Positions 6,373 to 48,425 of a stretch of 64,000 nucleotides of DNA are shown one piece after another. Every line of letters starts with the position of its first letter. Positions within the stretch are counted from its first letter, which is position 1. The translations under genes and the position numbers were made by a program. Source of the DNA: a bacterium (GTDB lineage Bacteria > Patescibacteriota > Minisyncoccia > Phycocordibacterales > UBA2100); contig JAYPJF010000002.1 in the NCBI GenBank assembly GCA_038128225.1, positions 103,451 to 167,450 on the forward strand. The letters run 5' to 3'. The notes beneath the pieces were generated by a model, which had not been told where the DNA came from, ran no database searches, and saw only the letters and a program-made list of their open reading frames with translations.

Positions 6373-6738
6373 ATGCAAAATCTTTCAATAACATATCACC
6401 GTTCAATGCAGCGCGTTGGCGTGAAGCTTTTGGACGAGCACCCGCTTGAAACATTCATGTTCCGCTCCACTCTTGGGCTTCTTTTGATACTTGCGTGCGC
6501 ATATGTGTATTTGCTTACCGCTACCACATTTGCGGTTGTTGACCGAAAGGAGGCGCATGCACGCACGACTGAGCTCCAGACAACTGTCGCGCAGCTTGAA
6601 GCAGATTACGCGCAACTTGCACAATCAGTTGACGCACAGCTCGCTGTAGCGTACGCACTCACTGAGCCAATTGAAAAACAATTTGCAACGCGCCATGTGG
6701 CCGGAGCAACAGGCGCACTGGCTCACAATGAAATCTAG
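6373..6738 (+). CDS. ftsL: cell division protein FtsL-like (single TM plus coiled coil)
   Basis: Position between rsmH and ftsI. One TM helix (LGLLLILACAYVYLLTATTFAVV) followed by a heptad-like region. Confidence 0.55.
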   Translation: MQNLSITYHRSMQRVGVKLLDEHPLETFMFRSTLGLLLILACAYVYLLTATTFAVVDRKEAHARTTELQTTVAQLEADYAQLAQSVDAQLAVAYALTEPIEKQFATRHVAGATGALAHNEI

Positions 6739-8434
6739 GTTTGTTCTTCGCACTCGCGTGATCGCGGGCGGCATGATTTTTGCCGCTCTCTTTCTTGGTG
6801 TCCGTCTCTACTTTGTACAAATTGTTCATGGCGATGAGTTTCGAGAAGAGGCACGTTCACAATATGAGGCACCGCGCACCGAAGCAGCTGACCGGGGAAG
6901 CATCTTCTTTACTGACAAAAATGGAAAACATATGGAAGCGGCGCTGATGCGCGCCAGTTATCGCATTGCGATAAAACCAAGCCAACTTGGCGATACGCAC
7001 GCGACATATGACGCGCTGAATTCCGTTACTCCTATCGAATACTCTCGCTACGAAACAAGTACCGCAAAACGCGATGACCCGTACGAAGAAATTGCAACTC
7101 GAGTTCCTGAAGATAAGGCATTTGCGATACAAGCGCTTGGACTTCCCGGTGTTGTCATAGTGCGCGAATATTGGCGCTTCTATCCTGCTCAGAAACTTGC
7201 AGCGCAAACACTTGGTTTTGTGGGATTTCGCGGGGATGAACGTGTCGGGCGCTACGGTCTCGAACGGTATTGGGAAGATGTTTTGAAGCGATCACCGAAT
7301 TCGCATTACTCCAATTTCTTCGCAGAGATATTTTCGAGTGTGCAAGCATTTGCAACCGAGCAAGGAGAAGGTGACCTAGTCACCACGATCGAACCTGTTG
7401 TGGAGCAGCACCTTGAAGATTCACTCAAAGAAATTAATCAGGTGTATCGGCCAAAACACGTAGGAGGAATTATCATGGATCCGAAAACTGGCGCGATTTA
7501 TGCAATGGCCGCACTGCCTACATTTGACCCGAACGAGTACAATACGGTATCTGATCCGGCAGTATACTCGAATCCACTTGTGGAAAGCGTGTATGAATTC
7601 GGCTCGACAGTAAAAGCGCTTACCATGGCGGCTGGGCTTGATGCGGGTGTTATTACTCCAAAAACAACGTACGAAGACCGCGGCTTTGTCATCAAGAGTG
7701 GCGCGCGCATCTCAAACTACGACGGCAAGGCGCGCGGAGTAGTACCGATGCAAGAGGTACTGAGCCAATCACTCAATACAGGTGTCTCGTTCATCGTCGA
7801 TAGACTTGGGCATGAGCGGTTCGCGCGGTACATGCGCGCGTTTAAGCTCGGCGAGGAAACAGGCATTGACTTGCCAAACGAAGTTCCCGGCATACTCTCC
7901 GCGCTTGAAAGTAAAAGTGATGTTGATTATGCGTCAGCGTCGTTTGGGCAAGGATTCGCAACGACGCCGCTTGCACTCACTCGCGCGCTCTCCGCGCTCG
8001 CCAATGACGGAGTATTACCGGAGCCGCATGTGGTTGACTCGATCCGCTATGAAAGCGGCATCACCAAGCGCGTGTGGCGCGAAGGCGTAGATCATGTCAT
8101 CTCAGAAGAAGCAGCAGACACCGTGACCACCATGCTTACCACTGTGGTAGATGAGGCGCTCTTACATGGTGAAATTAAAAACGATCACTACCAAATCGCG
8201 GCAAAAACAGGCACAGCTCAGATCGCGCGCCCTGGCGGCGGATATTACACTGACCGCTATCTGCACTCATTTTTTGGCTATTTTCCAGCAAGTGATCCAA
8301 AGTTTATAATTTTCCTCTACACTGTTGAGCCGCAAGGGGTTGAGTACGCTTCGCAATCTTTAGCGCGGCCATTTGCGGAACTGGCAAATTTCTTGCTGAC
8401 CTATTACGATGTGCCTCCTGACCGAACACCATGA
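6728..8434 (+). CDS. ftsI: peptidoglycan D,D-transpeptidase FtsI (PBP3-type class B penicillin-binding protein)
   Basis: N-terminal TM. SxxK (FGSTVKALT), SxN-like (RISNYDG) and KTGTA motifs. Position in the dcw cluster. Confidence 0.85.
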   Translation: MKSRFVLRTRVIAGGMIFAALFLGVRLYFVQIVHGDEFREEARSQYEAPRTEAADRGSIFFTDKNGKHMEAALMRASYRIAIKPSQLGDTHATYDALNSVTPIEYSRYETSTAKRDDPYEEIATRVPEDKAFAIQALGLPGVVIVREYWRFYPAQKLAAQTLGFVGFRGDERVGRYGLERYWEDVLKRSPNSHYSNFFAEIFSSVQAFATEQGEGDLVTTIEPVVEQHLEDSLKEINQVYRPKHVGGIIMDPKTGAIYAMAALPTFDPNEYNTVSDPAVYSNPLVESVYEFGSTVKALTMAAGLDAGVITPKTTYEDRGFVIKSGARISNYDGKARGVVPMQEVLSQSLNTGVSFIVDRLGHERFARYMRAFKLGEETGIDLPNEVPGILSALESKSDVDYASASFGQGFATTPLALTRALSALANDGVLPEPHVVDSIRYESGITKRVWREGVDHVISEEAADTVTTMLTTVVDEALLHGEIKNDHYQIAAKTGTAQIARPGGGYYTDRYLHSFFGYFPASDPKFIIFLYTVEPQGVEYASQSLARPFAELANFLLTYYDVPPDRTP

Positions 8435-9729
8435 AGAAGATCGCGCGCGCTATCATTTTGTACCTCATTACGGTTGAAGCAAAACTTGTGCTCAAAAAGT
8501 ACAAGCCCACGATTGTGGGGGTGACAGGGAGCGTTGGCAAAACATCGGCGAAAGACGCAATCCATGCCGTACTTGCGGAGCAGTTTTACGTTGCAAAAAG
8601 TAAGAAAAGCATGAACAGTGAATTTGGTGTCCCCCTTTCTATTCTCATGCGCGAAAGCGGGTGGGGAAGCCCGTTCAGTTGGATCATGTCGCTTTGGGAA
8701 GGGGCAACGCTCATTCTATTCAAGAATCACTATCCCAGCGTACTCGTGCTTGAAGTCGGGGCGGATCACCCAGGGGACATTGGAGCAATTGCGGGATGGA
8801 TACAGCCGCAAGTTGCAGTGGTGACAGGTGTTCCTGATGTACCGGTGCACATCGAATTTTTTGGTTCCGTAGAAGAGGTTGCGCGCGAAAAGCGAAAGTT
8901 GGTGGAAGCAACAACTTCGAAGGGTGCTGTTGTTCTCAATGGAGATGATGCGCGTGCGTATGAAATGCGCAAAGGAGTTCCTGGCAAAGTGTACTCATAC
9001 GGGTTTGGCACCCACAACGAAATCCACGCCTCACATGTAGAAACGATGTACGAAGGGCAGGTACCGCATGGCGTGCGATTCCGCATCAATCATCGAGGCT
9101 CTTCGGTGCCAGTTGCGGTACAAGGGGCCTTGGGGCACACGCAGGTGTATCCGGCGCTTGCTGCAGCGGCAGTTGGGCTTGCGCTTAAAATGGATTTGGT
9201 AACTATCGGGAAGGGGTTACTGCACTATGAACCTGCGCCAGGGCGGATGCGCATTGTCGCAGGCAGGAAAGGAAGCACGATCATCGATGATACGTACAAT
9301 TCATCTCCCGCCGCAATGGTCTCCGCACTGGCGACACTTAAGACTATCCAAGGTCCTGGGCGCAAGTATGCCCTTTTGGCTGACATGAAAGAGTTGGGGA
9401 AATTTAGTGACGATGCGCACGCGCGGATTGGCGCGGAAAGCGCACACGGAATTGACTGGCTTGTCACCGTAGGGGAACAAGCAAAAGTTATTGCCGAGAG
9501 CGCACGCACGCACGGGCTACATCCCGAGCGCATTACCGAATTTTCTGCACAAGACTCGCAAAAAGCAGGGGAAACAGTTGCGCGCCGCATTGAGCGAGGA
9601 GACATCATTTTAGTAAAAGGCTCGCAAAGTATGCGCATGGAAAAAGCGGTGAAAGAACTCATGGCGGAACCGCTGCGGGCAAAGGAGTTGCTCGTGCGGC
9701 AAAATAGTGAGTGGCTTGCGCGACACTAA
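8431..9729 (+). CDS. murF: UDP-N-acetylmuramoyl-tripeptide--D-alanyl-D-alanine ligase MurF
   Basis: Mur ligase P-loop (VGVTGSVGKTS). C-terminal GDIILVKGSQSMRME typical of MurF. ATGA overlap with the ftsI stop. Confidence 0.85.
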   Translation: MKKIARAIILYLITVEAKLVLKKYKPTIVGVTGSVGKTSAKDAIHAVLAEQFYVAKSKKSMNSEFGVPLSILMRESGWGSPFSWIMSLWEGATLILFKNHYPSVLVLEVGADHPGDIGAIAGWIQPQVAVVTGVPDVPVHIEFFGSVEEVAREKRKLVEATTSKGAVVLNGDDARAYEMRKGVPGKVYSYGFGTHNEIHASHVETMYEGQVPHGVRFRINHRGSSVPVAVQGALGHTQVYPALAAAAVGLALKMDLVTIGKGLLHYEPAPGRMRIVAGRKGSTIIDDTYNSSPAAMVSALATLKTIQGPGRKYALLADMKELGKFSDDAHARIGAESAHGIDWLVTVGEQAKVIAESARTHGLHPERITEFSAQDSQKAGETVARRIERGDIILVKGSQSMRMEKAVKELMAEPLRAKELLVRQNSEWLARH

Positions 9730-9731
9730 TC

Positions 9732-9995
9732 ATGGAAAAAGAAAAACCCTTCTACGGTAGTGAACGCGAAGCGCGTACTGCACCGGGAGAAATCTACAGA
9801 CATTACAAGGGCGGCATTTATCGCCTGGTGGCGCGCGATGTACTGCATAGCGAAACAGAAGAGCTCGGAGTTGTGTATGAACATTTGTGGCCGCACACAC
9901 ATCGGTTTTTCTTCCGCCCCCAAACCATGTTTTTTGACACGTTGCCGCAAGAGAAAGGTGGAGGGAAACGATTCGCGCTACTCAAAAAGTCGTAG
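9732..9995 (+). CDS. DUF1653 family protein
   Basis: YRHYKGGIYRLV...EHLWPHT motif typical of DUF1653. Confidence 0.55.
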   Translation: MEKEKPFYGSEREARTAPGEIYRHYKGGIYRLVARDVLHSETEELGVVYEHLWPHTHRFFFRPQTMFFDTLPQEKGGGKRFALLKKS

Positions 9996-10034
9996 TTTGA
10001 ATTTGCCAGTTTTTGTTTTATGATGTTTGCCTAA

Positions 10035-10106
10035 GGCCCTATCGTCTATCGGCTAGGACGCGACCCTCTCACGGTCGAAAGCGGGGTTCGATTCCCCGTA
10101 GGGTCA
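10035..10106 (+). tRNA. tRNA-Glu (anticodon CTC), no encoded CCA
   Basis: Manual cloverleaf: acceptor GGCCCTA/TAGGGTC; D-arm GTC-TATCGGCTAG-GAC; anticodon stem CGACC/GGTCG with loop CTCTCAC; T-arm CGGGG-TTCGATT-CCCCG; discriminator A. Confidence 0.8.
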
Positions 10107-10269
10107 TCGGTTTAGGAAAATACTCCGGCTTGCCGGAGTATTTTCGTAGACCGAACGATGATGCCTTGGAGGCAAATCGAACGGCCGGACCGAGCAAAGC
10201 GAGGGAGGTGGGCTCGCGACTTTTTGCGTAGCAAAAAAGTTGTGAGGCGATTCCCCGTAGGGTCATCGG
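10089..10269 (+). repeat. 31-bp direct repeat (CGATTCCCCGTAGGGTCATCGGTTTAGGAAA): copy 1 = tRNA-Glu 3' end plus 13 nt (10089-10119), copy 2 at 10239-10269. The two copies flank a 119-bp palindrome-rich spacer.
   Basis: Exact duplication seen in the sequence. The spacer contains AAAATACTCCGGC-TTGC-GCCGGAGTATTTT and CTTTTTGC-GTA-GCAAAAAAG inverted repeats. Confidence 0.8.
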
Positions 10270-10294
10270 TTTAGGAAAGTCACAAGGCAGTAAG

Positions 10295-10328
10295 TATTCC
10301 ATGTAACAAAAAACAGCGGCCCACGAGT
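10295..10328 (-). terminator. rho-independent terminator for the minus-strand gene ending at 10349
   Basis: Minus strand reads CAGCGGCCCAC-TCG-TGGGCCGCTG followed by TTTTTTGTT. Confidence 0.7.
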
Positions 10329-10348
10329 GGGCCGCTGTGCGTTCTGCA

Positions 10349-11353
10349 TCATCCAATGAGGATCTTTCGGAGAGATGCAAGTGTCTCTTCAGCTTGTGCG
10401 GTCGAGGGATCGGTCACCACCGCTTGTAGAGTGGCAAACTCTGACCTCGCACTACTCAGGCGCGCCTGCGCACGCTCAATTTCTGATTCGAGTTCAGCGA
10501 TTTCTTTTCTGAGAGCCGACAAAGCTTGGCCGTGTTGTTTGGCGCCTTCAACAATCTGCGAAAGTCGCACGACCTCCGAAAGTAAGTCGCGTGGCAGCGA
10601 CGGTGCCTCTTTTTCCTCTTTGCCGACAGGTGATGTTTCGGCGGGCTGTGTCACCACTGCAAGCGTTGGTGCCGTTCTTACATGTCTAAGCCATTTGTCC
10701 CCAATGATCAGCAAAGATGCAACTTTCCCCGGCTTGAGATCGCCACCAGCGATGAGTGCCACAATGTCGGCCTCACAATTCATGCGATCCAGCCGCGTGA
10801 GGATGTCGATGCAGACCTCACGAGGGATCACACCTGCATTAGTCGCTTTTGCAACAGCCTCCTCGAAGAACAGGGTAATTGCCTCATTTGTCAGAGGCGT
10901 TGGCTCTACAACTGTTAGCGTGCTTTGTAATGGCGTCGGTTCTGAGGTATCGTGCGCGCCTTGGTCTGCCTTCTCGGCTGTGGAAGAGGCGTCTTTTATT
11001 TTGCCCAACCTTTTTTCGAGGGCAGCATAAAACGCTTCTGGCTCCATCCCATACGGTGTCACAACCTGCAGTGAGTATCTGGCATCGTTGCCGCCGGACT
11101 GCCAGCGGATTTCGACTGATCTTCGTTGGGTATTTGGCAACCCTAGTTGGAGTCCTTTGGCGTGGGGTCCTCCCTTAATCCTGCCTTCGACTATCGCGGT
11201 AAACGTTCCGGACATTCCGCACTCGAGTAAGACTTGTGCCAACGCTGCTCTGAAGTTTTTGTCAGGGCCAAAGTCCCGTACGATCCTTTCTTTTCCACTC
11301 AAAATTACCTGTACTACGGGGGTGGCATGTTTAGGATTAGCGTGTGTGCTCAT
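10349..11353 (-). CDS. hypothetical protein with C-terminal coiled coil (island gene)
   Basis: Start chosen at the ATG with SD GGAGAGAG (MSTHANPKH...). C-terminal heptad-rich region (LRKEIAELESEIERAQARL). Transcribed divergently from the DUF262 gene. Confidence 0.5.
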   Translation of the reverse strand: MSTHANPKHATPVVQVILSGKERIVRDFGPDKNFRAALAQVLLECGMSGTFTAIVEGRIKGGPHAKGLQLGLPNTQRRSVEIRWQSGGNDARYSLQVVTPYGMEPEAFYAALEKRLGKIKDASSTAEKADQGAHDTSEPTPLQSTLTVVEPTPLTNEAITLFFEEAVAKATNAGVIPREVCIDILTRLDRMNCEADIVALIAGGDLKPGKVASLLIIGDKWLRHVRTAPTLAVVTQPAETSPVGKEEKEAPSLPRDLLSEVVRLSQIVEGAKQHGQALSALRKEIAELESEIERAQARLSSARSEFATLQAVVTDPSTAQAEETLASLRKILIG

Positions 11354-11583
11354 CACTCTCTCCATGATGACTGGTTCGTTATAAGGCAAAACGCACCACA
11401 TCGGGTGGCATTTTCCACCAAGAGTGTAACACTTGACAGCTGATTTGACAAATGTCGCTATACATCTTAGCATGCCTCGCAAGACTAGCGTCTCGCGGGT
11501 CTTCTCGGGTGCCAACGCAAAAAAAGTCGTTGGGGGACACCCGGGTGTTCCTTGACAAAGTAGTCCAAACCGAAGGATAGGAA

Positions 11584-12675
11584 ATGTCAAACATCCAGCC
11601 TGTCAAACTGTTCAATGCGGCGCTTGACGATGCAACAGACAGCCCCGCCGGAGTTGTTCTGCGTGGAGCTCTTGATCTGGGATCGTTGCATCACTTGCTT
11701 CGCGATGACTATCAGCGTGAGGCACAGCCGCTCACTGCGCAGTGGCGCATCCTTGATGCGTTGCAGAAGCGTACCCGCCTTCCTGATGTTGATCTCGGCA
11801 TGCGGGGAGAGGAGTTCACGACCCGTGATGGATCGTTCTTCCTCAAAGACCCGACGTACATCATTGACGGCGTCCAGCGCATCTCGACGATTATCCACTT
11901 CGTGAACACGAATCCGGGTGTTGACGTTCGCATCGGTGCGACCGTCCATCTGAATACGACAAAGGAGTGGGAGCGCGAGCGCTTCCACAGGCTCAACAAC
12001 TGGCGGAGTAAGCTTTCACCCAACATCCTGCTGCGCAACATGCGGGAGAGCAACGCCGGGGTCCTGATGCTCTATAGTATCTCGACAAACGACAAGGTGT
12101 TTCCATTGCGCGGTCGCGTGTCATGGAACCAGCGCATGACCAAGGGCGAACTCACTACCGCGCTCACGTTCGCGAAAACGGTCGCGTACTTGCACGGCCA
12201 CAAGGTGTCCTCGCACCGCAACAACGTCGAGGAGATCGGCATCGGCTTGCAGAAACTCGTCGACGTAGTCGGCATTCAGGCACTTCGCGAAAATATCCGC
12301 ACCTTCTTCGATCTCATCGACACATGCTGGGGGATCAAGAGCGTGCAGTACAAGGAGAGCGCGATCTACATGCGAGGGCAGTTCTTGTTCGTACTCGCGC
12401 GACTTCTGTCAGATCACTATGACTTCTGGCAGGATGACGCGGAGAAGCGGCTGTTCGTCGGCGCTGATCTGCGGCGGAAGATCGCCCAATTCCCGATTCA
12501 CGATCCGGAGGTGGTCCGTCTTGCTGGTTCCTCTGGCGCGGCTCGGCAGATCCTCTACATCTTGCTTCGTGATCACATCAACAAGGGCAAGACCACGAAG
12601 AGGCTTTCGCCGCGCTCGACGGCCACGACGGCGGATCTCAGTGACGACGATGAGGACGATGCCAAAGCCGCGTAA
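11584..12675 (+). CDS. DndB/DUF262-like ParB-nuclease-domain protein (DGxQR motif), acidic C-terminal tail
   Basis: YIIDGVQRIST matches the DGQQR/DGQHR signature of the DUF262/DndB ParB-like nuclease family. Size is about DndB-like (363 aa). Higher GC than the host backbone. Confidence 0.55.
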   Translation: MSNIQPVKLFNAALDDATDSPAGVVLRGALDLGSLHHLLRDDYQREAQPLTAQWRILDALQKRTRLPDVDLGMRGEEFTTRDGSFFLKDPTYIIDGVQRISTIIHFVNTNPGVDVRIGATVHLNTTKEWERERFHRLNNWRSKLSPNILLRNMRESNAGVLMLYSISTNDKVFPLRGRVSWNQRMTKGELTTALTFAKTVAYLHGHKVSSHRNNVEEIGIGLQKLVDVVGIQALRENIRTFFDLIDTCWGIKSVQYKESAIYMRGQFLFVLARLLSDHYDFWQDDAEKRLFVGADLRRKIAQFPIHDPEVVRLAGSSGAARQILYILLRDHINKGKTTKRLSPRSTATTADLSDDDEDDAKAA

Positions 12676-12806
12676 GCGCAGGGCGCTCGTTGCCAAAGGG
12701 CGTCGCCTAATTCGGGCTGCGAGAATAAACATTGGCATTGCACGGAAACGCATCAATGAGATGCGTCGGATCCTTGCAAGAACTCCAAGAACTCGCTGAC
12801 AAAACG

Positions 12807-12843
12807 CTCCGGCTGGTATCGCACCAGCCGGAGCATTTTTTTG
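12807..12843 (+). terminator. rho-independent (possibly bidirectional) terminator
   Basis: CTCCGGCTGGT-ATCGC-ACCAGCCGGAG followed by TTTTTTTG. A second GC hairpin with a T9 run follows at 12862-12898. Confidence 0.65.
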
Positions 12844-12895
12844 TGCACGTATTTCATAATGAGAGCCGGCGCCGCATCGCAGCGCCGGTTTTTTT

Positions 12896-13363
12896 TTACG
12901 GGTTTCCCATCTGTGTCTCCAGGTCTTCGATTTCCTCCACACTCAAAAACCGAAGCCATGTCAGAATCAAGACGTAGTCTGGCATGTCGGAGAAGACATG
13001 ATGCTCGTCGCTCCGCACCACTTTATAACTTTCCACGGCTGCCATGCCGCGCATGACCACTTCACCTTCGACAAACACCCACGCATGAATTTCATCCGGC
13101 GAAACAATGTCGGCAACGCCAGACGCAACTACGGCATCAAAAAGACCAACAAATGAGGCACCTGGTGACAGGTGCGCTTTTTTGTCAGGTCTGACGAAAA
13201 GCGTTACAGCAGTATTTGCCTGATTGTTGCCGGCGAGCTCTATGCCACCAACAAAACCAGGAATCACATGTTGGTCGGTTGTACGCGCGATGAACTGGGC
13301 GACATCGCTCTCATCCGTTGGGCGCTCCCATGAAATGCGCAAAAGCACATTTGATAGACGCAT
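12896..13363 (-). CDS. hypothetical protein (156 aa)
   Basis: ATG with SD AGAGGAG (MRLSNVLLRISWERP...). No family recognised. Confidence 0.45.
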   Translation of the reverse strand: MRLSNVLLRISWERPTDESDVAQFIARTTDQHVIPGFVGGIELAGNNQANTAVTLFVRPDKKAHLSPGASFVGLFDAVVASGVADIVSPDEIHAWVFVEGEVVMRGMAAVESYKVVRSDEHHVFSDMPDYVLILTWLRFLSVEEIEDLETQMGNP

Positions 13364-13382
13364 GGTAGTCTCCTCTGGGTTT

Positions 13383-13577
13383 TTAGAAACGCATTCGTGA
13401 CGCAAGTCTTGCCGCAAGGTCTGTGAGATCAAGCGGCAGGCCGAGCCATTTTTTGGTTTCGGTTTGCTGCTTCAGCGCAGCGAGTCGTTCATCGACCTCT
13501 TTGTCGCGACGATAGGGGTTCCATATCACCACAACCACAGCCAACACAAGAACTATAAGTCCACTGATTTCGGCCAT
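13383..13577 (-). CDS. small membrane protein (64 aa, one TM)
   Basis: SD GGAAGGAGA before the ATG; hydrophobic helix LIVLVLAVVVVIW; 20 nt upstream of the 156-aa gene. Confidence 0.45.
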   Translation of the reverse strand: MAEISGLIVLVLAVVVVIWNPYRRDKEVDERLAALKQQTETKKWLGLPLDLTDLAARLASRMRF

Positions 13578-13728
13578 GTGTTTCTCCTTCCGCTCGACAA
13601 GATACTATTTTGTGGTGTTATTTGCAAGCGTACTCTCATTAGGTAGTTAGATTAATAACAGGTTAAAAGAAAGCCCCCGCGCTCAAAAAATTTGCGCGGA
13701 GGCTCAAGGAATCAAGAGGGACAAGCCC

Positions 13729-14529
13729 TCAAGCGTTCAAGGGTCGCCTCCGGGAGGAGGACAAGCCCATGTCGGAGTTGCGCTCGACATTCCACCAGCG
13801 GCTGACGATGAGCCCGTGAGCGCCGAAGTAACCGACGTAGACGCGGCTACCGCCCGAGTCCAGACTCGACGTGCGGACGTAGATGCCCGGCAGCAGATAG
13901 ACGTTCCTGACCGCCTTGTACGAAGTGAGACACCAGGCGACCTCGGCGACGTTGGGCACCATCTCCTCGTCGGAGAGAAGCGCCCGCTGTTCGTTCCAGT
14001 TCTTCGAGGTGGACTCGGGGACCGGCTCTTTGCGGAGCATGAGCCACCGGGTCTCGACCTTGTCGTTCTGGGCGAATGCCTTCTCCGCGTACCAGCCGCC
14101 GTCCTTCGAGTAGAAATGGTCCTTCTTCACGGCGCGAACGTTGAGAAGGGACATCGGACGGTTGGGACCGGCGACGAGCATGTAGCCGTTGTCGCGGCAC
14201 CACTCCAGCACTTCCTGCGCGGGCACGGAGTCGCCGAACTGCGCGAGCTGCTCGTCGGTGTAGACGATTGGCTTGCGCGACTTGGCGATTTCCTCCGGCG
14301 CGATGAAGTCCTTGCCGAGGATGGTACGGGCGAGGCTGTAGTCCGGCGTCTTCGCCGTGAACCGGCGAATGCCCGCGAGCACGTGCGTCTGGAACTCGCC
14401 GCCGCGCTCCAAGAGCCGTTGGAGACCGTCCTTGTCGGGATTGATCTCCTTGAGCGCCTTGTCGGTGGCGTCGTCCACGAAACGCTTGAACTGCTTCTGC
14501 TGGTGAGGCGTGATCGAACGAATCGTCAT
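13729..14529 (-). CDS. hypothetical protein (267 aa), high GC
   Basis: SD AGGAGAAAAGCG before the ATG (MTIRSITPHQQKQFKRF...). The large antisense ORF on + is a GC-driven shadow. A terminator hairpin lies downstream at about 13672-13700. Confidence 0.5.
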   Translation of the reverse strand: MTIRSITPHQQKQFKRFVDDATDKALKEINPDKDGLQRLLERGGEFQTHVLAGIRRFTAKTPDYSLARTILGKDFIAPEEIAKSRKPIVYTDEQLAQFGDSVPAQEVLEWCRDNGYMLVAGPNRPMSLLNVRAVKKDHFYSKDGGWYAEKAFAQNDKVETRWLMLRKEPVPESTSKNWNEQRALLSDEEMVPNVAEVAWCLTSYKAVRNVYLLPGIYVRTSSLDSGGSRVYVGYFGAHGLIVSRWWNVERNSDMGLSSSRRRPLNA

Positions 14530-14710
14530 CGCTTTTCTCCTTTGCATAGCCGGAATCGCTCCGGCGGGGTTTACCACACGTAGACCCGTTTCAGGTCGTC
14601 CTTCCGAACGATCCCGAGGTGATTACATTATATTAATATGGAATTGTCAAATCATGTTCCAAACAGGAGATTTTGATAGTTGGGAGTGAAGTTTTTAGCT
14701 AAAGCAACAA

Positions 14711-45587: not shown

Positions 45588-48425
45588 ATGCGGTACGATC
45601 ACAAAAAGATTGAGAAGAAATGGCAAAAAAAGTGGAAAAGTTCTAACCTGTACAAAACAAAGGACGACCCAAAAAAGAAAAAGTCATACGTGCTAGACAT
45701 GTTCCCATACCCGTCGGGAGAAGGACTCCATGTTGGACATCCAAAAGGATATATTGCCACTGACGTGTATTCGCGCCTTAAACGCATGCAGGGTTTTAAC
45801 ACACTTCACCCGATGGGATGGGACGCTTTCGGTCTCCCTGCAGAAAATTTTGCAATCAAGAACAAAATCCACCCACGTAAAGCGGTGGAAAAGAACATCA
45901 AGCGCTTTAAAGAACAACTTGCAATGCTTGGTTTCAACTACGATTGGAGTCGAGAAATCAACACCACGGACCCTGCGTACTATAAATGGACACAATGGAT
46001 ATTTTTGCAGCTCTATAAAAAAGGTCTTGCGTATCAATCAAATGAGCCAATTAATTGGTGTCCCTCATGTCAAACAGGACTTTCGAATGAAGATCTTGAC
46101 GGTGGCCTGTGTGAGCGTTGTGGCTCACAAGTAGAAAAACGTTCAATGCGTCAGTGGGTGCTTCGAATCACCCGGTATGCTGACCGATTGCTGAACGATC
46201 TTGAACTTCTTCCTAAATGGCCAGAACATATCAAAGAAGCCCAGCGCAACTGGATTGGTAGAAGCGAGGGTGCGCTTGTGTCGTTTTCGCTAACAGATGT
46301 CCCAGGGCAGACAAGTGGCACACACCAGGTTGAGGTTTTTACAACACGGCCGGACACCATGTTTGGCGCTACTTTTGTCGCGATTTCTCCCGAGTTGGCG
46401 CAGAAGTGGATCGAAGTAGGATGGCAGGCGTCAAAAGAGGTGCATGAGTACGTACAAAAGGCGCTTGCAGATCGAATAACACAAGGCGTTAAAGGTGTTC
46501 AAGAGAAAACAGGAATTCACGCGGGCATTAGTGCAATCAACCCCGCAAATCAGGAAAAAATCCCTGTGTGGGTTGCGAATTATGTACTGGGCGACGTTGG
46601 CACAGGGGCCATTATGGCGGTGCCGGCACACGATGAGCGAGACTTTGAGTTCGCAAAAAAATATCAGCTCCCCATAGTACAGGTCGTAAAGCCGGTGTAT
46701 GTCGACAAGATAAACCCGGTTCGCGAGGGTGTAAAAAACACCAAGCGCTCAATTGTTATCATTGCCGTAAAACATTGGGAGAAAGATTTGTATCTCATGA
46801 ACGCCTCGGAAAAATATAAGTGGAAAATACTCTTTACTGGAGGAATCGAAGAAGGAGAGGATCCAGTAGAAACGGCTAAGCGTGAAATTCGTGAAGAAAG
46901 TGGCTACAAGAATTTTCGCTCTGGGCGAGTGCTTGATTTCGTACACAAAGATGTTTTCTACGCGCCGCATAAAGGGGTAAATCGCGAGGTTGACGTTACT
47001 AATGTTTTACTTGAGCTCGAAAATGGCGAGATGGGCGAGATCACGGAAGAAGAGCAGGCGCTCCACCAAGTCTCATGGAAGACGCGTGAGGAAATGATTC
47101 AAGAGATTTCACATGACAATCACCGCTTTGTATTTCGTTATGCCACTGAAGGGGGGCGGCCAAATGATTGGTCAGGGACCCTCATCCATTCAGGAGCTTT
47201 CGACGGAATGACCTCAGATCAGGCAAAAAAGAAAATCACCGATCATGTCGGAGGAGTATGGACAACAACATACCGCATCAAGGATTGGGTATTTTCGCGG
47301 CAGCGGTACTGGGGAGAGCCCATCCCCATTATTCATTGTGCCGCGTGCGGCGTGGTGCCAGTGCCAGATAAAGACCTTCCAGTAAAACTTCCTGAAGTTA
47401 AAAACTATGCACCGACAGGGACAGGAGAGTCGCCGCTTGCGGCGATCGAAAAATGGGTCAATGTAGCGTGTCCGCACTGTAAAGGGAGGGCAAAGCGCGA
47501 GACAAACACAATGCCGCAGTGGGCGGGGTCTTCCTGGTACTGGCTTCGTTTTATGGATCCAAAAAACAAAAAGTCTTTTGTTGATAAAAAAAAGGAGCGC
47601 TATTGGAAACCTGTCGATGTGTACGTAGGTGGGGATCATGCGGTGCGGCATCTTATTTATGCGCGCTTTTGGCATAAATTTTTGTATGACCTGCATCTGG
47701 TTTCCGGCAAAGAACCGTTCACGCGTCTTGAGTTTCTCGGGTTCATTCTTGCAGAAGATGGGCGCAAAATGTCTAAGCGTTGGGGGAACATCATACGTCC
47801 AGACGACATTGTGAAAACGTGGGGTGCAGACACACTGCGTCTGTATGAAATGTTTATGGGGCCGTTTACTGATGCGATTGCGTGGAACACAAACAACATG
47901 ATTGGTGTACGGCGATTTTTGGAGCGCGTATGGACTCTCAGGGAAAGTGTAAGCGCGAAAGATAATCGGGACCTCGACGCGGTGCTCCATCGCACTATCA
48001 AAAAAGTGGGCGAAGATATCGAGGCGTTTAAATTCAACACTGCCGTAAGTCAGATGATGGTGTTTGTTAACGAAGCGCACGGCAAAGTAGTGGGGCGTGC
48101 GCAGTGGGAAATGTTTCTGAAAATTCTCGCACCTTTTGCGCCACATAGCACAGAAGAACTCTGGACTCAGCTTGGCTACAAGAAATCAATCCATCGTGAA
48201 TCATGGCCAAAGTACAGTGCGCGAAAAATAAAAGTTGCTGTAACAACAATCGCAGTGCAGGTGAACGGCAAAGTGCGCGGAGAGGTTTCTCTTGCGCCCG
48301 ACGCACCCAAAGATGACGCGTGCGCGGCGGGCCGTCTTGCAGTTTTGAAGTGGCTCGAAAACAAAGAAGAAAAGAACGTGATCTATGTGCCGGGAAAAAT
48401 CCTGAACTTCGTTATTGGAGAATAA
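45588..48425 (+). CDS. leuS: leucyl-tRNA synthetase carrying an inserted Nudix hydrolase domain (insertion about 46690-47180)
   Basis: HIGH-type motif (HVGHPKGY); editing CP1 region; AVPAHDERDFEFAKKY; KMSKR-type motif (KMSKRWGN). Between the AVPAHD motif and GTLIHSGAFDG lies a Nudix fold of about 160 aa with the box GGIEEGEDPVETAKREIREESGY. Confidence 0.9.
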   Translation: MRYDHKKIEKKWQKKWKSSNLYKTKDDPKKKKSYVLDMFPYPSGEGLHVGHPKGYIATDVYSRLKRMQGFNTLHPMGWDAFGLPAENFAIKNKIHPRKAVEKNIKRFKEQLAMLGFNYDWSREINTTDPAYYKWTQWIFLQLYKKGLAYQSNEPINWCPSCQTGLSNEDLDGGLCERCGSQVEKRSMRQWVLRITRYADRLLNDLELLPKWPEHIKEAQRNWIGRSEGALVSFSLTDVPGQTSGTHQVEVFTTRPDTMFGATFVAISPELAQKWIEVGWQASKEVHEYVQKALADRITQGVKGVQEKTGIHAGISAINPANQEKIPVWVANYVLGDVGTGAIMAVPAHDERDFEFAKKYQLPIVQVVKPVYVDKINPVREGVKNTKRSIVIIAVKHWEKDLYLMNASEKYKWKILFTGGIEEGEDPVETAKREIREESGYKNFRSGRVLDFVHKDVFYAPHKGVNREVDVTNVLLELENGEMGEITEEEQALHQVSWKTREEMIQEISHDNHRFVFRYATEGGRPNDWSGTLIHSGAFDGMTSDQAKKKITDHVGGVWTTTYRIKDWVFSRQRYWGEPIPIIHCAACGVVPVPDKDLPVKLPEVKNYAPTGTGESPLAAIEKWVNVACPHCKGRAKRETNTMPQWAGSSWYWLRFMDPKNKKSFVDKKKERYWKPVDVYVGGDHAVRHLIYARFWHKFLYDLHLVSGKEPFTRLEFLGFILAEDGRKMSKRWGNIIRPDDIVKTWGADTLRLYEMFMGPFTDAIAWNTNNMIGVRRFLERVWTLRESVSAKDNRDLDAVLHRTIKKVGEDIEAFKFNTAVSQMMVFVNEAHGKVVGRAQWEMFLKILAPFAPHSTEELWTQLGYKKSIHRESWPKYSARKIKVAVTTIAVQVNGKVRGEVSLAPDAPKDDACAAGRLAVLKWLENKEEKNVIYVPGKILNFVIGE

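What the first reader, a model, noticed from the sequence alone, without database searches (positions are those of the whole stretch)
11584..12675. DGxQR (DUF262/DndB-like) ParB-nuclease-domain protein with acidic tail, divergently arranged with a coiled-coil protein
The motif YIIDGVQRIST at residues about 95-105 is the hallmark of the DUF262/DndB/GmrS N-terminal ParB-like NTPase/nuclease domain. These families act in DNA-phosphorothioation regulation, 7-deazaguanine systems and type IV restriction. The partner here (334-aa coiled-coil protein, shared divergent promoter region 11354-11583) is not a known companion. The pair may be a new two-gene module.
Basis: partly seen in the sequence, partly recalled or inferred. 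Interest (0 to 1): 0.55.

Follow-up and report, generated by a model that had tools for sequence, protein, structure and literature searches.

The report
Stand-alone DGxQR ParB-fold protein, optional partner
The gene encodes a strongly conserved but unstudied branch of a known nucleotide-binding, DNA-associated protein superfamily (ParB/DndB/DUF262) that came from phages and now sits alone in tiny "candidate phyla" bacteria, and the neighbouring coiled-coil gene is a recurrent but optional companion rather than an obligate partner.

Summary
ORF 11584-12675 (+) encodes a 363-aa protein with YIIDGVQRIST at residues 92-102 and an acidic tail. It is divergent from a 334-aa gene (10349-11353, -) whose last ~80 residues form long helices.

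The protein has a ParB/sulfiredoxin fold by structure search. It carries all three DGQHR/DUF262 signature motifs (YQR, DGxQR, FxxxN), each at least 99% conserved in 156 homologues. No curated model reaches its cut-off, and every listed homologue lacks a Pfam assignment.

It has no HNH/DUF1524 nuclease. No dnd, dpd or ssp genes lie nearby, so it is not DndB, DpdB or GmrSD proper.

The family has hundreds of members. They occur in Patescibacteria, in Acidobacteriota prophage-like modules (ParB-DGxQR-PD-(D/E)XK-AAA_24-ERCC4-RecD2), and on viral contigs next to YqaJ/ERF recombination genes.

The partner belongs to a second uncharacterised family of at least 86 clusters. It lies next to DGxQR genes in 8 loci, in two gene orders and several clades. 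That is only about 5% of DGxQR loci, and two of three other partner homologues have no DGxQR neighbour.

Verdict: a new variant of a known superfamily, probably an NTP-gated DNA-binding switch of phage origin with a facultative partner. Interest is moderate.

The parts
11584..12675 (+). DGxQR protein gene (363 aa), a stand-alone divergent DGQHR/DUF262-superfamily protein
   Evidence: ORF; at least 349 homologues, none with a Pfam assignment; AF2 pLDDT 89, pTM 0.82; ParB/Srx-fold matches
11584..12033 (+). N-terminal ParB/sulfiredoxin-like domain (residues ~1-150), mixed strands and helices
   Evidence: Secondary structure of the model; Foldseek hits to ParB-N, PadC, Noc, BrxU and Srx; GmrSD_N hit at residues 85-149
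11710..11718 (+). Y43-Q44-R45, the 'QR pair' motif of DGQHR domains
   Evidence: 100% conserved in 156 members; motif definition in PMC4619093
11866..11880 (+). D95-G96-V97-Q98-R99, a variant of the DGQHR/DGQQR NTP-pocket motif, at the end of strand 91-95 and just before helix 97-109
   Evidence: D, G and R 100% and Q 99% conserved; position in the model
11983..11997 (+). F134-x-x-x-N138, the FxxxN motif of DGQHR domains
   Evidence: 99-100% conserved; PMC4619093
12034..12618 (+). Basic, mostly alpha-helical C-terminal domain (residues 151-345; pI 9.99, net charge +11.3), with W181, Q183, N237, D246, F267, F281, F303, D307, L324 and H331 at least 95% conserved
   Evidence: the TIGR03187 match extends to residue 275
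12619..12672 (+). Acidic C-terminal tail (residues 346-363), disordered in the model; seen in the Patescibacteria members inspected and absent from the Acidobacteriota members, which end in GGTRRAV
10349..11353 (-). Partner gene (334 aa): basic N-terminal alpha/beta domain (~1-120), acidic/Pro-rich linker, middle domain, C-terminal long helices (256-333)
   Evidence: family of 86 clusters at 50% identity
11423..11473 (.). Back-to-back promoter-like sites sharing the TTGACA/TGTCAA -35 region: + strand 11445-11473 for the DGxQR gene, - strand 11451-11423 for the partner
   Evidence: Consensus scan; TTGACA invariant in the alignment with L005 and L090. Consensus matches only, not shown to be functional
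12806..12834 (+). Strong terminator-like hairpin (12 pairs, then T-run) 130 nt after the DGxQR stop, so the gene looks monocistronic
10313..10338 (-). Terminator-like hairpin just after the partner's stop codon
10035..10106 (+). tRNA-Glu(ctc) flanking the pair; tRNA-Glu lies in the same position in L090

Best explanation
The 363-aa protein is a stand-alone member of a large, strongly conserved branch of the DGQHR/DUF262 (ParB/sulfiredoxin-fold NTPase) superfamily that no curated model covers.

Shown here:
- a ParB/Srx-like N-terminal domain with the three invariant pocket motifs (YQR, DGxQR, FxxxN);
- a basic helical C-terminal domain;
- no nuclease domain;
- its own promoter-like site and terminator;
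- relatives in prophage-like and viral contigs at the head of recombination/replication modules.

Inferred: it binds, and probably hydrolyses, a nucleoside triphosphate in the DGxQR pocket, and uses that as a switch controlling DNA binding by the basic C-terminal domain. It would then act as a regulator or DNA sensor of mobile-element origin, not as a restriction nuclease. In the Patescibacteria members the acidic tail may mask the DNA-binding surface or recruit a partner.

The neighbouring 334-aa protein belongs to a second uncharacterised, fast-evolving family. It associates with DGxQR genes recurrently but facultatively. The most plausible role is an accessory adaptor or effector used by some lineages, not an obligate subunit.
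For: Fold: AF2 pLDDT 89. Foldseek PDB hits are to pNOB8 ParB-N (prob 0.99), PadC, Noc, BrxU and Srx. BFVD gives 31 hits at E<=1e-3 among ParB/DUF262/DndB-like viral proteins.

Motifs: the three signature motifs and about 20 further residues are at least 95% conserved in 156 members.

HMMs: TIGR03187 is hit by 27 of 43 members (best 7.6e-9) and GmrSD_N by 16 of 43.

Charge: the C-terminal domain is +11 and the tail is -6.6.

No nuclease or modification genes.

Mobile-element ancestry: the Acidobacteriota module runs ParB_N/HTH - DGxQR - PDDEXK_1 - AAA_24 - ERCC4 - RecD2, with a serine recombinase nearby. There are 26 IMG/VR contigs, some with YqaJ, ERF, HNH, MT-A70, DnaB or GcrA-like genes nearby.

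Partner: 36-40% identical in the two closest relatives (DGxQR 79-84% identical), in the same divergent arrangement. It lies downstream and co-directional in L036, L065, L106 and L121, and divergent again in L201.

Precedent for NTP-switch behaviour of DUF262 and DndB-like proteins: PMC10952713 and PMC12704722. DndB is a dimeric DNA-binding autoregulator: PMC4507180.
Against: No biochemical evidence exists for this family. All matches to curated models are below their cut-offs.

The third residue of the pentapeptide is not Q in this protein (V97) or in most homologues shown in the alignment (L or V; a few have Q, W or Y), so nucleotide specificity or even binding could differ.

No DNA-binding motif (HTH) was detected in the C-terminal domain, and no full-length structural match was found in PDB (best TM 0.29).

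ParB-fold proteins can also be nucleases or kinases, so the switch/regulator reading is an inference from relatives.

Context in Patescibacteria is too variable to indicate a pathway.
Confidence: 0.55

Rival explanations
1. The DGxQR protein and the coiled-coil protein form an obligate new two-gene system, for example an anti-phage defence or maintenance module.
For: Adjacency in 8 loci, in two gene orders and several DGxQR clades. Overlapping divergent promoter-like sites are conserved in close relatives. The pair sits beside tRNA genes in the window, L090 and L036. Weak PADLOC similarity to DUF262 components of Menshen (NsnA) and PD-T4-2.
Against: The partner was detected next to only 6 of 153 distinct DGxQR loci, plus the window, even with a profile and jackhmmer. 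The M13 peptidase | DGxQR | alaS synteny exists both with (L106) and without (L002, L011, L031) the partner. Partner homologues P0125 and P0132 have no DGxQR gene within 3-4 kb. PADLOC hits cover only 20-50 residues around the motif.
Confidence: 0.15
2. It is a DndB- or DpdB-type component or regulator of a DNA-modification system (phosphorothioation or 7-deazaguanine).
For: The best curated match is the DGQHR domain TIGR03187, spanning residues 90-275. Size (~360 aa) and architecture resemble DndB. One member each touches PF14072 (DndB) and NF041060 (DpdB).
Against: The DndB and DpdB models are hit by only 1 of 43 members, at E~0.008. No dndCDE, dpdA/TGT or ssp genes were found among the larger ORFs of the 64-kb window or among recurrent neighbours in about 150 loci.
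Confidence: 0.05
3. It is the NTPase/sensor half of a split type IV restriction system (GmrS-like) that works with a separately encoded nuclease.
For: DGxQR with Q at the fourth position, as in DUF262 DGQQR. GmrSD_N is hit in 16 of 43 members. BrxU is among the PDB matches. GmrS and GmrD can be separate proteins (PMC4619093). Some viral loci carry an HNH gene a few genes downstream.
Against: No DUF1524/HNH gene is adjacent in the window or recurrently adjacent elsewhere. The gene appears monocistronic. Many family members are themselves phage-borne.
Confidence: 0.1
4. It is a phage-derived DNA-metabolism factor (a ParB-like nuclease, or an accessory or host-nuclease modulator of recombination) retained in Patescibacteria.
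For: It sits immediately upstream of PD-(D/E)XK or YqaJ exonuclease and AAA_24 or ERF genes in prophage-like and viral contigs. Weak PHROG hits to phrog_1583 and phrog_2598.
Against: In Patescibacteria it is not linked to recombination genes. No nuclease-type active site has been identified. Position in a module does not define function.
Confidence: 0.15
5. It is a ParB-like partition or DNA-clamp protein that reaches DNA through an adaptor, with the coiled-coil protein in the role of pNOB8 AspA.
For: The top PDB match is pNOB8 ParB-N (5k5d, prob 0.99). In one search the partner's middle region aligns with helix-rich segments in its distant homologues whose sequence pattern suggests a winged helix; this is my reading of the sequences, and no model supports it.
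Against: No ParA/Walker ATPase neighbour. No PF02195 hit and no GERRxR box. The gene is chromosomal and single-copy among housekeeping genes. No HTH model hits the partner.
Confidence: 0.05

Closest known systems
DGQHR-domain proteins (TIGR03187 / PF14072), including DndB
   Same: ParB/Srx-like N-terminal domain. QR pair, DGxxR pentapeptide and FxxxN motifs all present. Similar size (~360 aa), with a match extending into the helical domain (residues 90-275). DndB is a dimeric DNA-binding autoregulator, and a DndB-like protein binds ATP/GTP (PMC4507180, PMC12704722).
   Different: Scores 22.6 bits against a cut-off of 58.85. The pentapeptide is DG[V/L]QR rather than DGQHR. There is no dnd operon. 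A Patescibacteria-type acidic tail is present. The family occurs in phage recombination modules.
DUF262 / GmrS domain of GmrSD, BrxU and SspE (PF03235)
   Same: Same fold and motif family. The fourth motif residue is Q, as in DGQQR. These domains act as NTPase sensors (PMC4619093, PMC10952713).
   Different: No DUF1524/HNH nuclease domain or neighbour. Scores 18.2 bits against a cut-off of 33.2. Stand-alone and monocistronic.
Stand-alone DUF262 components of Menshen (NsnA), Dazbog and PD-T4-2
   Same: DUF262-type proteins without DUF1524 that work with other proteins. Weak PADLOC hits to NsnA (5.6e-4) and PD-T4-2_A (1.2e-3).
   Different: The hits cover only the motif region. None of the partner genes of those systems is present.
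Orphan and phage ParB-CTPase-fold proteins (survey in PMC12704722); pNOB8 ParB-N / AspA
   Same: ParB-fold module on mobile elements, often with unannotated extra domains. The best PDB structural match is pNOB8 ParB-N.
   Different: No PF02195 hit, no GERRxR box, no ParA. TM-scores are only ~0.3.

Membership tests
DGQHR/DUF262 superfamily (ParB/Srx-fold NTPases) | ParB/sulfiredoxin fold of the motif-bearing domain | tested here: met
   AF2 model pLDDT 89. Foldseek PDB: ParB-N 5k5d prob 0.99, PadC, Noc, BrxU, Srx. BFVD: 31 hits at E<=1e-3.
DGQHR/DUF262 superfamily (ParB/Srx-fold NTPases) | QR pair upstream of the pentapeptide | tested here: met
   Y43-Q44-R45 are 100% conserved in 156 members.
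DGQHR/DUF262 superfamily (ParB/Srx-fold NTPases) | Nearly invariant DGQ(H/Q)R pentapeptide | tested here: met
   Present as the variant D95-G96-[V/L/Q..]-Q98-R99. D, G, Q and R are 99-100% conserved; the third residue is variable.
DGQHR/DUF262 superfamily (ParB/Srx-fold NTPases) | FxxxN motif | tested here: met
   F134 (99%) and N138 (100%).
DGQHR/DUF262 superfamily (ParB/Srx-fold NTPases) | Score above the curated cut-off of TIGR03187, PF03235 or PF14072 | tested here: not met
   22.6 bits against 58.85; 18.2 bits against 33.2; PF14072 is hit by only 1 of 43 members at 0.0085.
DGQHR/DUF262 superfamily (ParB/Srx-fold NTPases) | NTP binding and hydrolysis | not testable with these tools
   Needs biochemistry.
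DndB (phosphorothioation regulator) | Encoded with dndCDE (dndBCDE operon) | tested here: not met
   No such genes among the window ORFs scanned or among recurrent neighbours in about 150 loci.
DndB (phosphorothioation regulator) | Binds palindromic boxes in its own promoter | not testable with these tools
   Only a 9-nt imperfect palindrome at 11534-11551 was seen, and it is not clearly conserved.
GmrSD / BrxU / SspE type IV restriction | DUF1524 (HNH-type) nuclease domain, fused or adjacent | tested here: not met
   No hit in the protein, and none among the recurrent neighbour families that were annotated or the window neighbours scanned.
DpdB (7-deazaguanine DNA modification) | DpdB model match and an adjacent dpdA (TGT-like) gene | tested here: not met
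   NF041060 is hit by 1 of 43 members at 0.0077. No TGT-like gene was seen.
Canonical ParB (CTPase clamp) | PF02195/TIGR00180 match, GERRxR box, HTH, parA neighbour | tested here: not met
   No PF02195 hit. The motif is DGVQR. No ParA-like neighbour.
Menshen / PD-T4-2 defence systems | Full-length match to the DUF262 component, plus the system's other genes | tested here: not met
   PADLOC hits at E 5.6e-4 and 1.2e-3 cover residues 91-138 and 88-109 only. The neighbours have no PADLOC hits beyond coiled-coil noise.

The most novel reading that the evidence does not exclude
The DGxQR NTPase and the 334-aa protein form a previously unknown, tRNA-adjacent two-gene cassette of candidate-phyla bacteria. 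In it the fast-evolving partner (basic N-terminal domain, possible winged helix, coiled-coil dimeriser) acts as the DNA-recognition adaptor or effector, and the DGxQR protein acts as the NTP-driven switch. This would be a new defence or DNA-maintenance system built on the ParB fold. The X-family protein would fill the same role in another clade.
Probability: 0.15. Interest if true: 0.65.

Novelty: new variant of a known kind. Interest (0 to 1): 0.4.

Why it matters
The ParB/Srx NTPase fold is being recognised as a general nucleotide-gated switch used by mobile elements and defence systems (PMC12704722, PMC10952713).

This family has hundreds of members, about 25 near-invariant residues and no curated model. 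It links Patescibacteria chromosomes with phage recombination modules of Acidobacteriota and other hosts, yet it has no assigned function. Defining it would add a stand-alone branch to the DUF262/DndB world.

It would also give a handle on accessory DNA biology in candidate-phyla bacteria, where almost nothing is characterised experimentally. The two recurrent neighbour families, the coiled-coil partner and X, are also completely unannotated.

Tried and rejected
- **PDB sequence searches** with the protein and with the family profile found nothing meaningful.
- **tblastn against cultured phages and PLSDB plasmids** gave no match.
- **Partner, word-indexed homologue search** found only itself and one distant relative.
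- **Partner, metagenome pattern scan** found nothing.
- **Partner, AF2 on a 2-sequence alignment** was poor (pLDDT 42), so no fold search was attempted.
- **Pfam, NCBIfam, PHROG and PADLOC on the partner** gave only coiled-coil noise.
- **Is family X a remote homologue of the partner?** Rejected: hhalign probability 0.3%.
- **Do the island genes orf178 (12896-13432) and orf282 (13729-14577) travel with the DGxQR gene?** Rejected: no tblastn hit in any related locus.
- **A third copy of the tRNA-Glu 3' repeat marking the far end of an island**: none in the window.
- **A conserved operator palindrome in the intergenic region**: not convincing.

Full report
**1. What is in the sequence**

ORF 11584-12675 (+) starts at an ATG preceded by AAGGATAGGAA and encodes 363 aa. 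YIIDGVQRIST lies at residues 92-102, and the protein ends in ...DLSDDDEDDAKAA.

The divergent gene is 10349-11353 (-), 334 aa, with a GGAGAG ribosome-binding site before its ATG. The longer 413-aa TTG ORF listed mechanically is not supported by homologues.

The 230-bp spacer holds two promoter-like sites that share a TTGACA/TGTCAA box: 11445-11473 on the + strand and 11451-11423 on the - strand. That TTGACA is invariant in the alignment with the two closest related loci.

Strong terminator-like hairpins follow each gene, at 12806-12834 (+) and 10338-10313 (-). The two genes therefore look like separate, back-to-back transcription units. The promoter and terminator calls are consensus matches only.

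tRNA-Glu(ctc) lies at 10035-10106.

The rest of the window is housekeeping and resembles Paceibacteria-type Patescibacteria genomes:
- rsmH, a PBP, murF and DUF1653 upstream;
- ATP synthase, AcrB/HlyD, SAICAR synthetase and YchF;
- LeuRS, CysRS, GluRS, MurG, Ddl and UvrC.

No dnd, dpd/TGT, ssp or HNH/DUF1524 gene was seen.

**2. What the DGxQR protein is**

Single-sequence HMM matches are all weak and below the curated cut-offs:
- GmrSD_N: E=0.003, 18.2 bits against a cut-off of 33.2;
- TIGR03187 DGQHR domain: E=7.7e-5, 22.6 bits against 58.85, but spanning residues 90-275 against profile positions 98-272 of 276;
- PADLOC NsnA and PD-T4-2_A over 20-50 residues only;
- phrog_1583: 6e-5.

Across 43 family members, TIGR03187 is hit by 27 (best 7.6e-9) and GmrSD_N by 16. 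DndB (PF14072) and DpdB are hit by one member each.

An AlphaFold2 model from the family alignment is confident (pLDDT 89, pTM 0.82). It shows a mixed alpha/beta N-terminal domain, with the DGxQR motif spanning the end of strand 91-95 and the start of helix 97-109, followed by a mostly helical C-terminal domain.

Foldseek against PDB returns only ParB/Srx-fold proteins at the top: pNOB8 ParB-N, PadC, Noc, BrxU and sulfiredoxin. TM-scores are low (~0.2-0.3), so there is no full-length relative with a solved structure. Against viral models, 31 hits at E<=1e-3 include proteins named as GmrSD_N/DUF262-domain, 'sulfur modification', ParB/sulfiredoxin or nuclease proteins, many of them 250-400 aa; many others are unnamed (TM up to ~0.5).

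Machnicka et al. (PMC4619093) define the DGQHR domain by a QR pair, the DGQHR pentapeptide and an FxxxN motif. Here all three are essentially invariant in 156 distinct homologues: Y43-Q44-R45, D95-G96-x-Q98-R99 and F134xxxN138. So are about 15 more residues spread over both domains.

Membership of the superfamily is therefore well supported. Membership of DndB, DpdB, GmrSD or canonical ParB is not, because their defining partners or domains were tested and are absent.

**3. The family and its contexts**

Counts of homologues found:
- at least 349 clusters at 90% identity, all ~355-390 aa and none with a precomputed Pfam domain;
- 85 species representatives in GTDB genomes;
- 197 metagenome stretches;
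- 27 stretches on 26 IMG/VR loci;
- none in cultured phages or plasmids.

Most are Patescibacteria at 40-86% identity. A clade at 38-40% identity lies in Acidobacteriota, with single cases labelled Planctomycetota and Armatimonadota.

In Patescibacteria the immediate neighbours are highly variable. Of 119 loci with at least 1.2 kb on the right and 106 on the left, most neighbours are singletons. One housekeeping synteny recurs, M13 peptidase | DGxQR | alaS, over 50-64% identity. Type-IV-coupling-protein-like ATPases lie upstream in a few loci.

In Acidobacteriota the gene sits in a conserved prophage-like block: ParB_N/HTH - DGxQR - PDDEXK_1 - AAA_24 - ERCC4 - RecD2-type helicase. A large serine recombinase lies about 6 kb upstream.

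On IMG/VR contigs it precedes YqaJ exonuclease and ERF annealing protein. HNH, MT-A70, DnaB and GcrA-like genes are nearby.

The family is thus a component of temperate-phage early or recombination regions. In Patescibacteria it persists as a stand-alone chromosomal gene under strong purifying selection.

The acidic tail is present in the Patescibacteria members inspected. Acidobacteriota members end in GGTRRAV.

**4. The partner**

The 334-aa protein has no family hit except coiled-coil noise over its last ~70 residues. AF2 on a two-sequence alignment is poor (pLDDT 42) except for the long C-terminal helices 256-333.

By composition it has four parts:
- a basic N-terminal domain (pI 9.9);
- an acidic, Pro-rich linker;
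- a middle domain;
- an acidic helical C-terminus.

An exhaustive profile search finds 86 clusters at 50% identity (24 at E<=1e-10), nearly all 300-420 aa. They align mainly on the N-terminal domain or over the full length. This is a real, fast-evolving family.

*Co-occurrence from the DGxQR side.* The two closest relatives with flanking DNA have the partner in the same divergent position, although it is only 36-40% identical:
- L090, DGxQR 84% identical;
- L005, DGxQR 79% identical.

A profile or jackhmmer search over 153 distinct DGxQR loci finds it in four more: L036, L065, L106 and L121. In those it lies immediately downstream on the same strand. In a neighbour-joining tree the paired DGxQR genes fall in at least three separate places.

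*Co-occurrence from the partner side.* Three further partner homologues were looked up. One (L201) has a divergent DGxQR gene. Two (L200, L202) have none within 3-4 kb and sit among housekeeping genes.

The M13 peptidase | DGxQR | alaS synteny exists both with the partner (L106) and without it (L002, L011, L031).

*Conclusion.* The linkage is far above chance and recurs in two gene orders, which argues for a functional connection. It is facultative on both sides: about 5% of DGxQR loci carry the partner.

A different, unrelated ~250-aa protein ('X') overlaps the DGxQR stop codon in 12 loci of one clade. This suggests that different lineages pair the DGxQR protein with different accessory proteins.

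**5. Mechanism**

Shown: fold, motifs, domain charges, absence of a nuclease domain, transcription-unit signals, and mobile-element contexts.

Inferred from characterised relatives:
- the DGxQR pocket binds and hydrolyses an NTP, as DUF262 does in GmrSD, BrxU and SspE, and as a DndB-like protein binds ATP/GTP (PMC10952713, PMC12704722);
- this gates DNA binding by the basic C-terminal domain, by analogy with DndB, a dimeric DNA-binding autoregulator (PMC4507180).

The acidic tail could be an autoinhibitory DNA mimic or a docking peptide. The basic N-terminal domain of the partner would be a candidate receptor. This last step is speculation.

Rival readings are given with their evidence in the Rival explanations section: an obligate two-gene system, DndB/DpdB, a split GmrSD, a phage recombination or nuclease accessory, and an adaptor-dependent ParB. 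None can be excluded biochemically. The DndB/DpdB and GmrSD memberships fail on tested defining features.

**6. Novelty and verdict**

This is a new variant of a known kind: a stand-alone branch of the DGQHR/DUF262 ParB-fold superfamily that no curated model covers. It has phage ancestry, a wide but sparse distribution, and a facultative uncharacterised partner.

It would interest people working on ParB-fold switches, on DUF262 defence proteins or on Patescibacteria. It is not a categorically new system on present evidence. Interest 0.4.

Noticed in passing
window 10089-10119 and 10248-10278: Exact 31-nt direct repeat made of the last 18 nt of tRNA-Glu(ctc) plus 13 nt of downstream flank, 159 bp apart. 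It looks like an att-type scar of a past integration or excision next to the gene pair. L090 has tRNA-Glu(ttc) in the same position but no duplication. There is no third copy in the window.
   Followed up: partly
L036 7757-10627: In this Kaiserbacteria contig the DGxQR + partner pair (8001-10302) lies between tRNA-Ala and tRNA-Pro genes. Together with the tRNA-Glu adjacency in the window and L090, this hints at a small tRNA-associated cassette.
   Followed up: partly
L041 9101-9877, L042 8995-9786, L046, L057, L058, L059, L085, L149, L169, L173 (possibly fused in L053 and L086): An unannotated ~250-aa protein family ('X') starts at or overlaps the DGxQR stop codon in 12 loci that form one DGxQR clade. 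It has no Pfam hit and is unrelated to the coiled-coil partner (hhalign probability 0.3%).
   Followed up: partly
L070-L088 (for example L079 7003-13915): Acidobacteriota prophage-like module: sigma-like gene, ParB_N/HTH, DGxQR, PDDEXK_1, AAA_24, ERCC4, RecD2-type helicase and a primase-like gene, with a large serine recombinase about 6 kb upstream.
   Followed up: partly
L182, L185, L192 (about 6600-14100); L190, L197; L193-L195: On IMG/VR viral contigs the DGxQR homologue is followed by a 160-aa protein, YqaJ exonuclease, ERF annealing protein and HNH, and preceded by a GcrA-like regulator. In others an MT-A70 methyltransferase lies just downstream, or DnaB upstream.
   Followed up: partly
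window 45588-48425 (+): Leucyl-tRNA synthetase with a NUDIX domain inserted at residues ~401-511. The same fused architecture appears in L202 and L203.
   Followed up: no
window 12896-13432 (-) and 13729-14577 (-): Two ORFs between the DGxQR gene and the glucose/sorbosone-dehydrogenase-like gene. The 178-aa one has only weak transglutaminase-core / lasso-peptide B2-like hits, and the 282-aa one has no hit in any library. Neither is found near DGxQR genes elsewhere. The 2-kb windows covering 10-16 kb have G+C of 0.53-0.55, against roughly 0.47-0.52 in most other 2-kb windows (one at 2-4 kb reaches 0.57).
   Followed up: partly
L002-L004, L008/L011, L031, L106: The M13 peptidase (divergent) | DGxQR | alaS synteny is conserved across DGxQR proteins that are only 50-64% identical to the query. 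This indicates long vertical retention of this phage-derived gene in some Paceibacteria lineages.
   Followed up: partly
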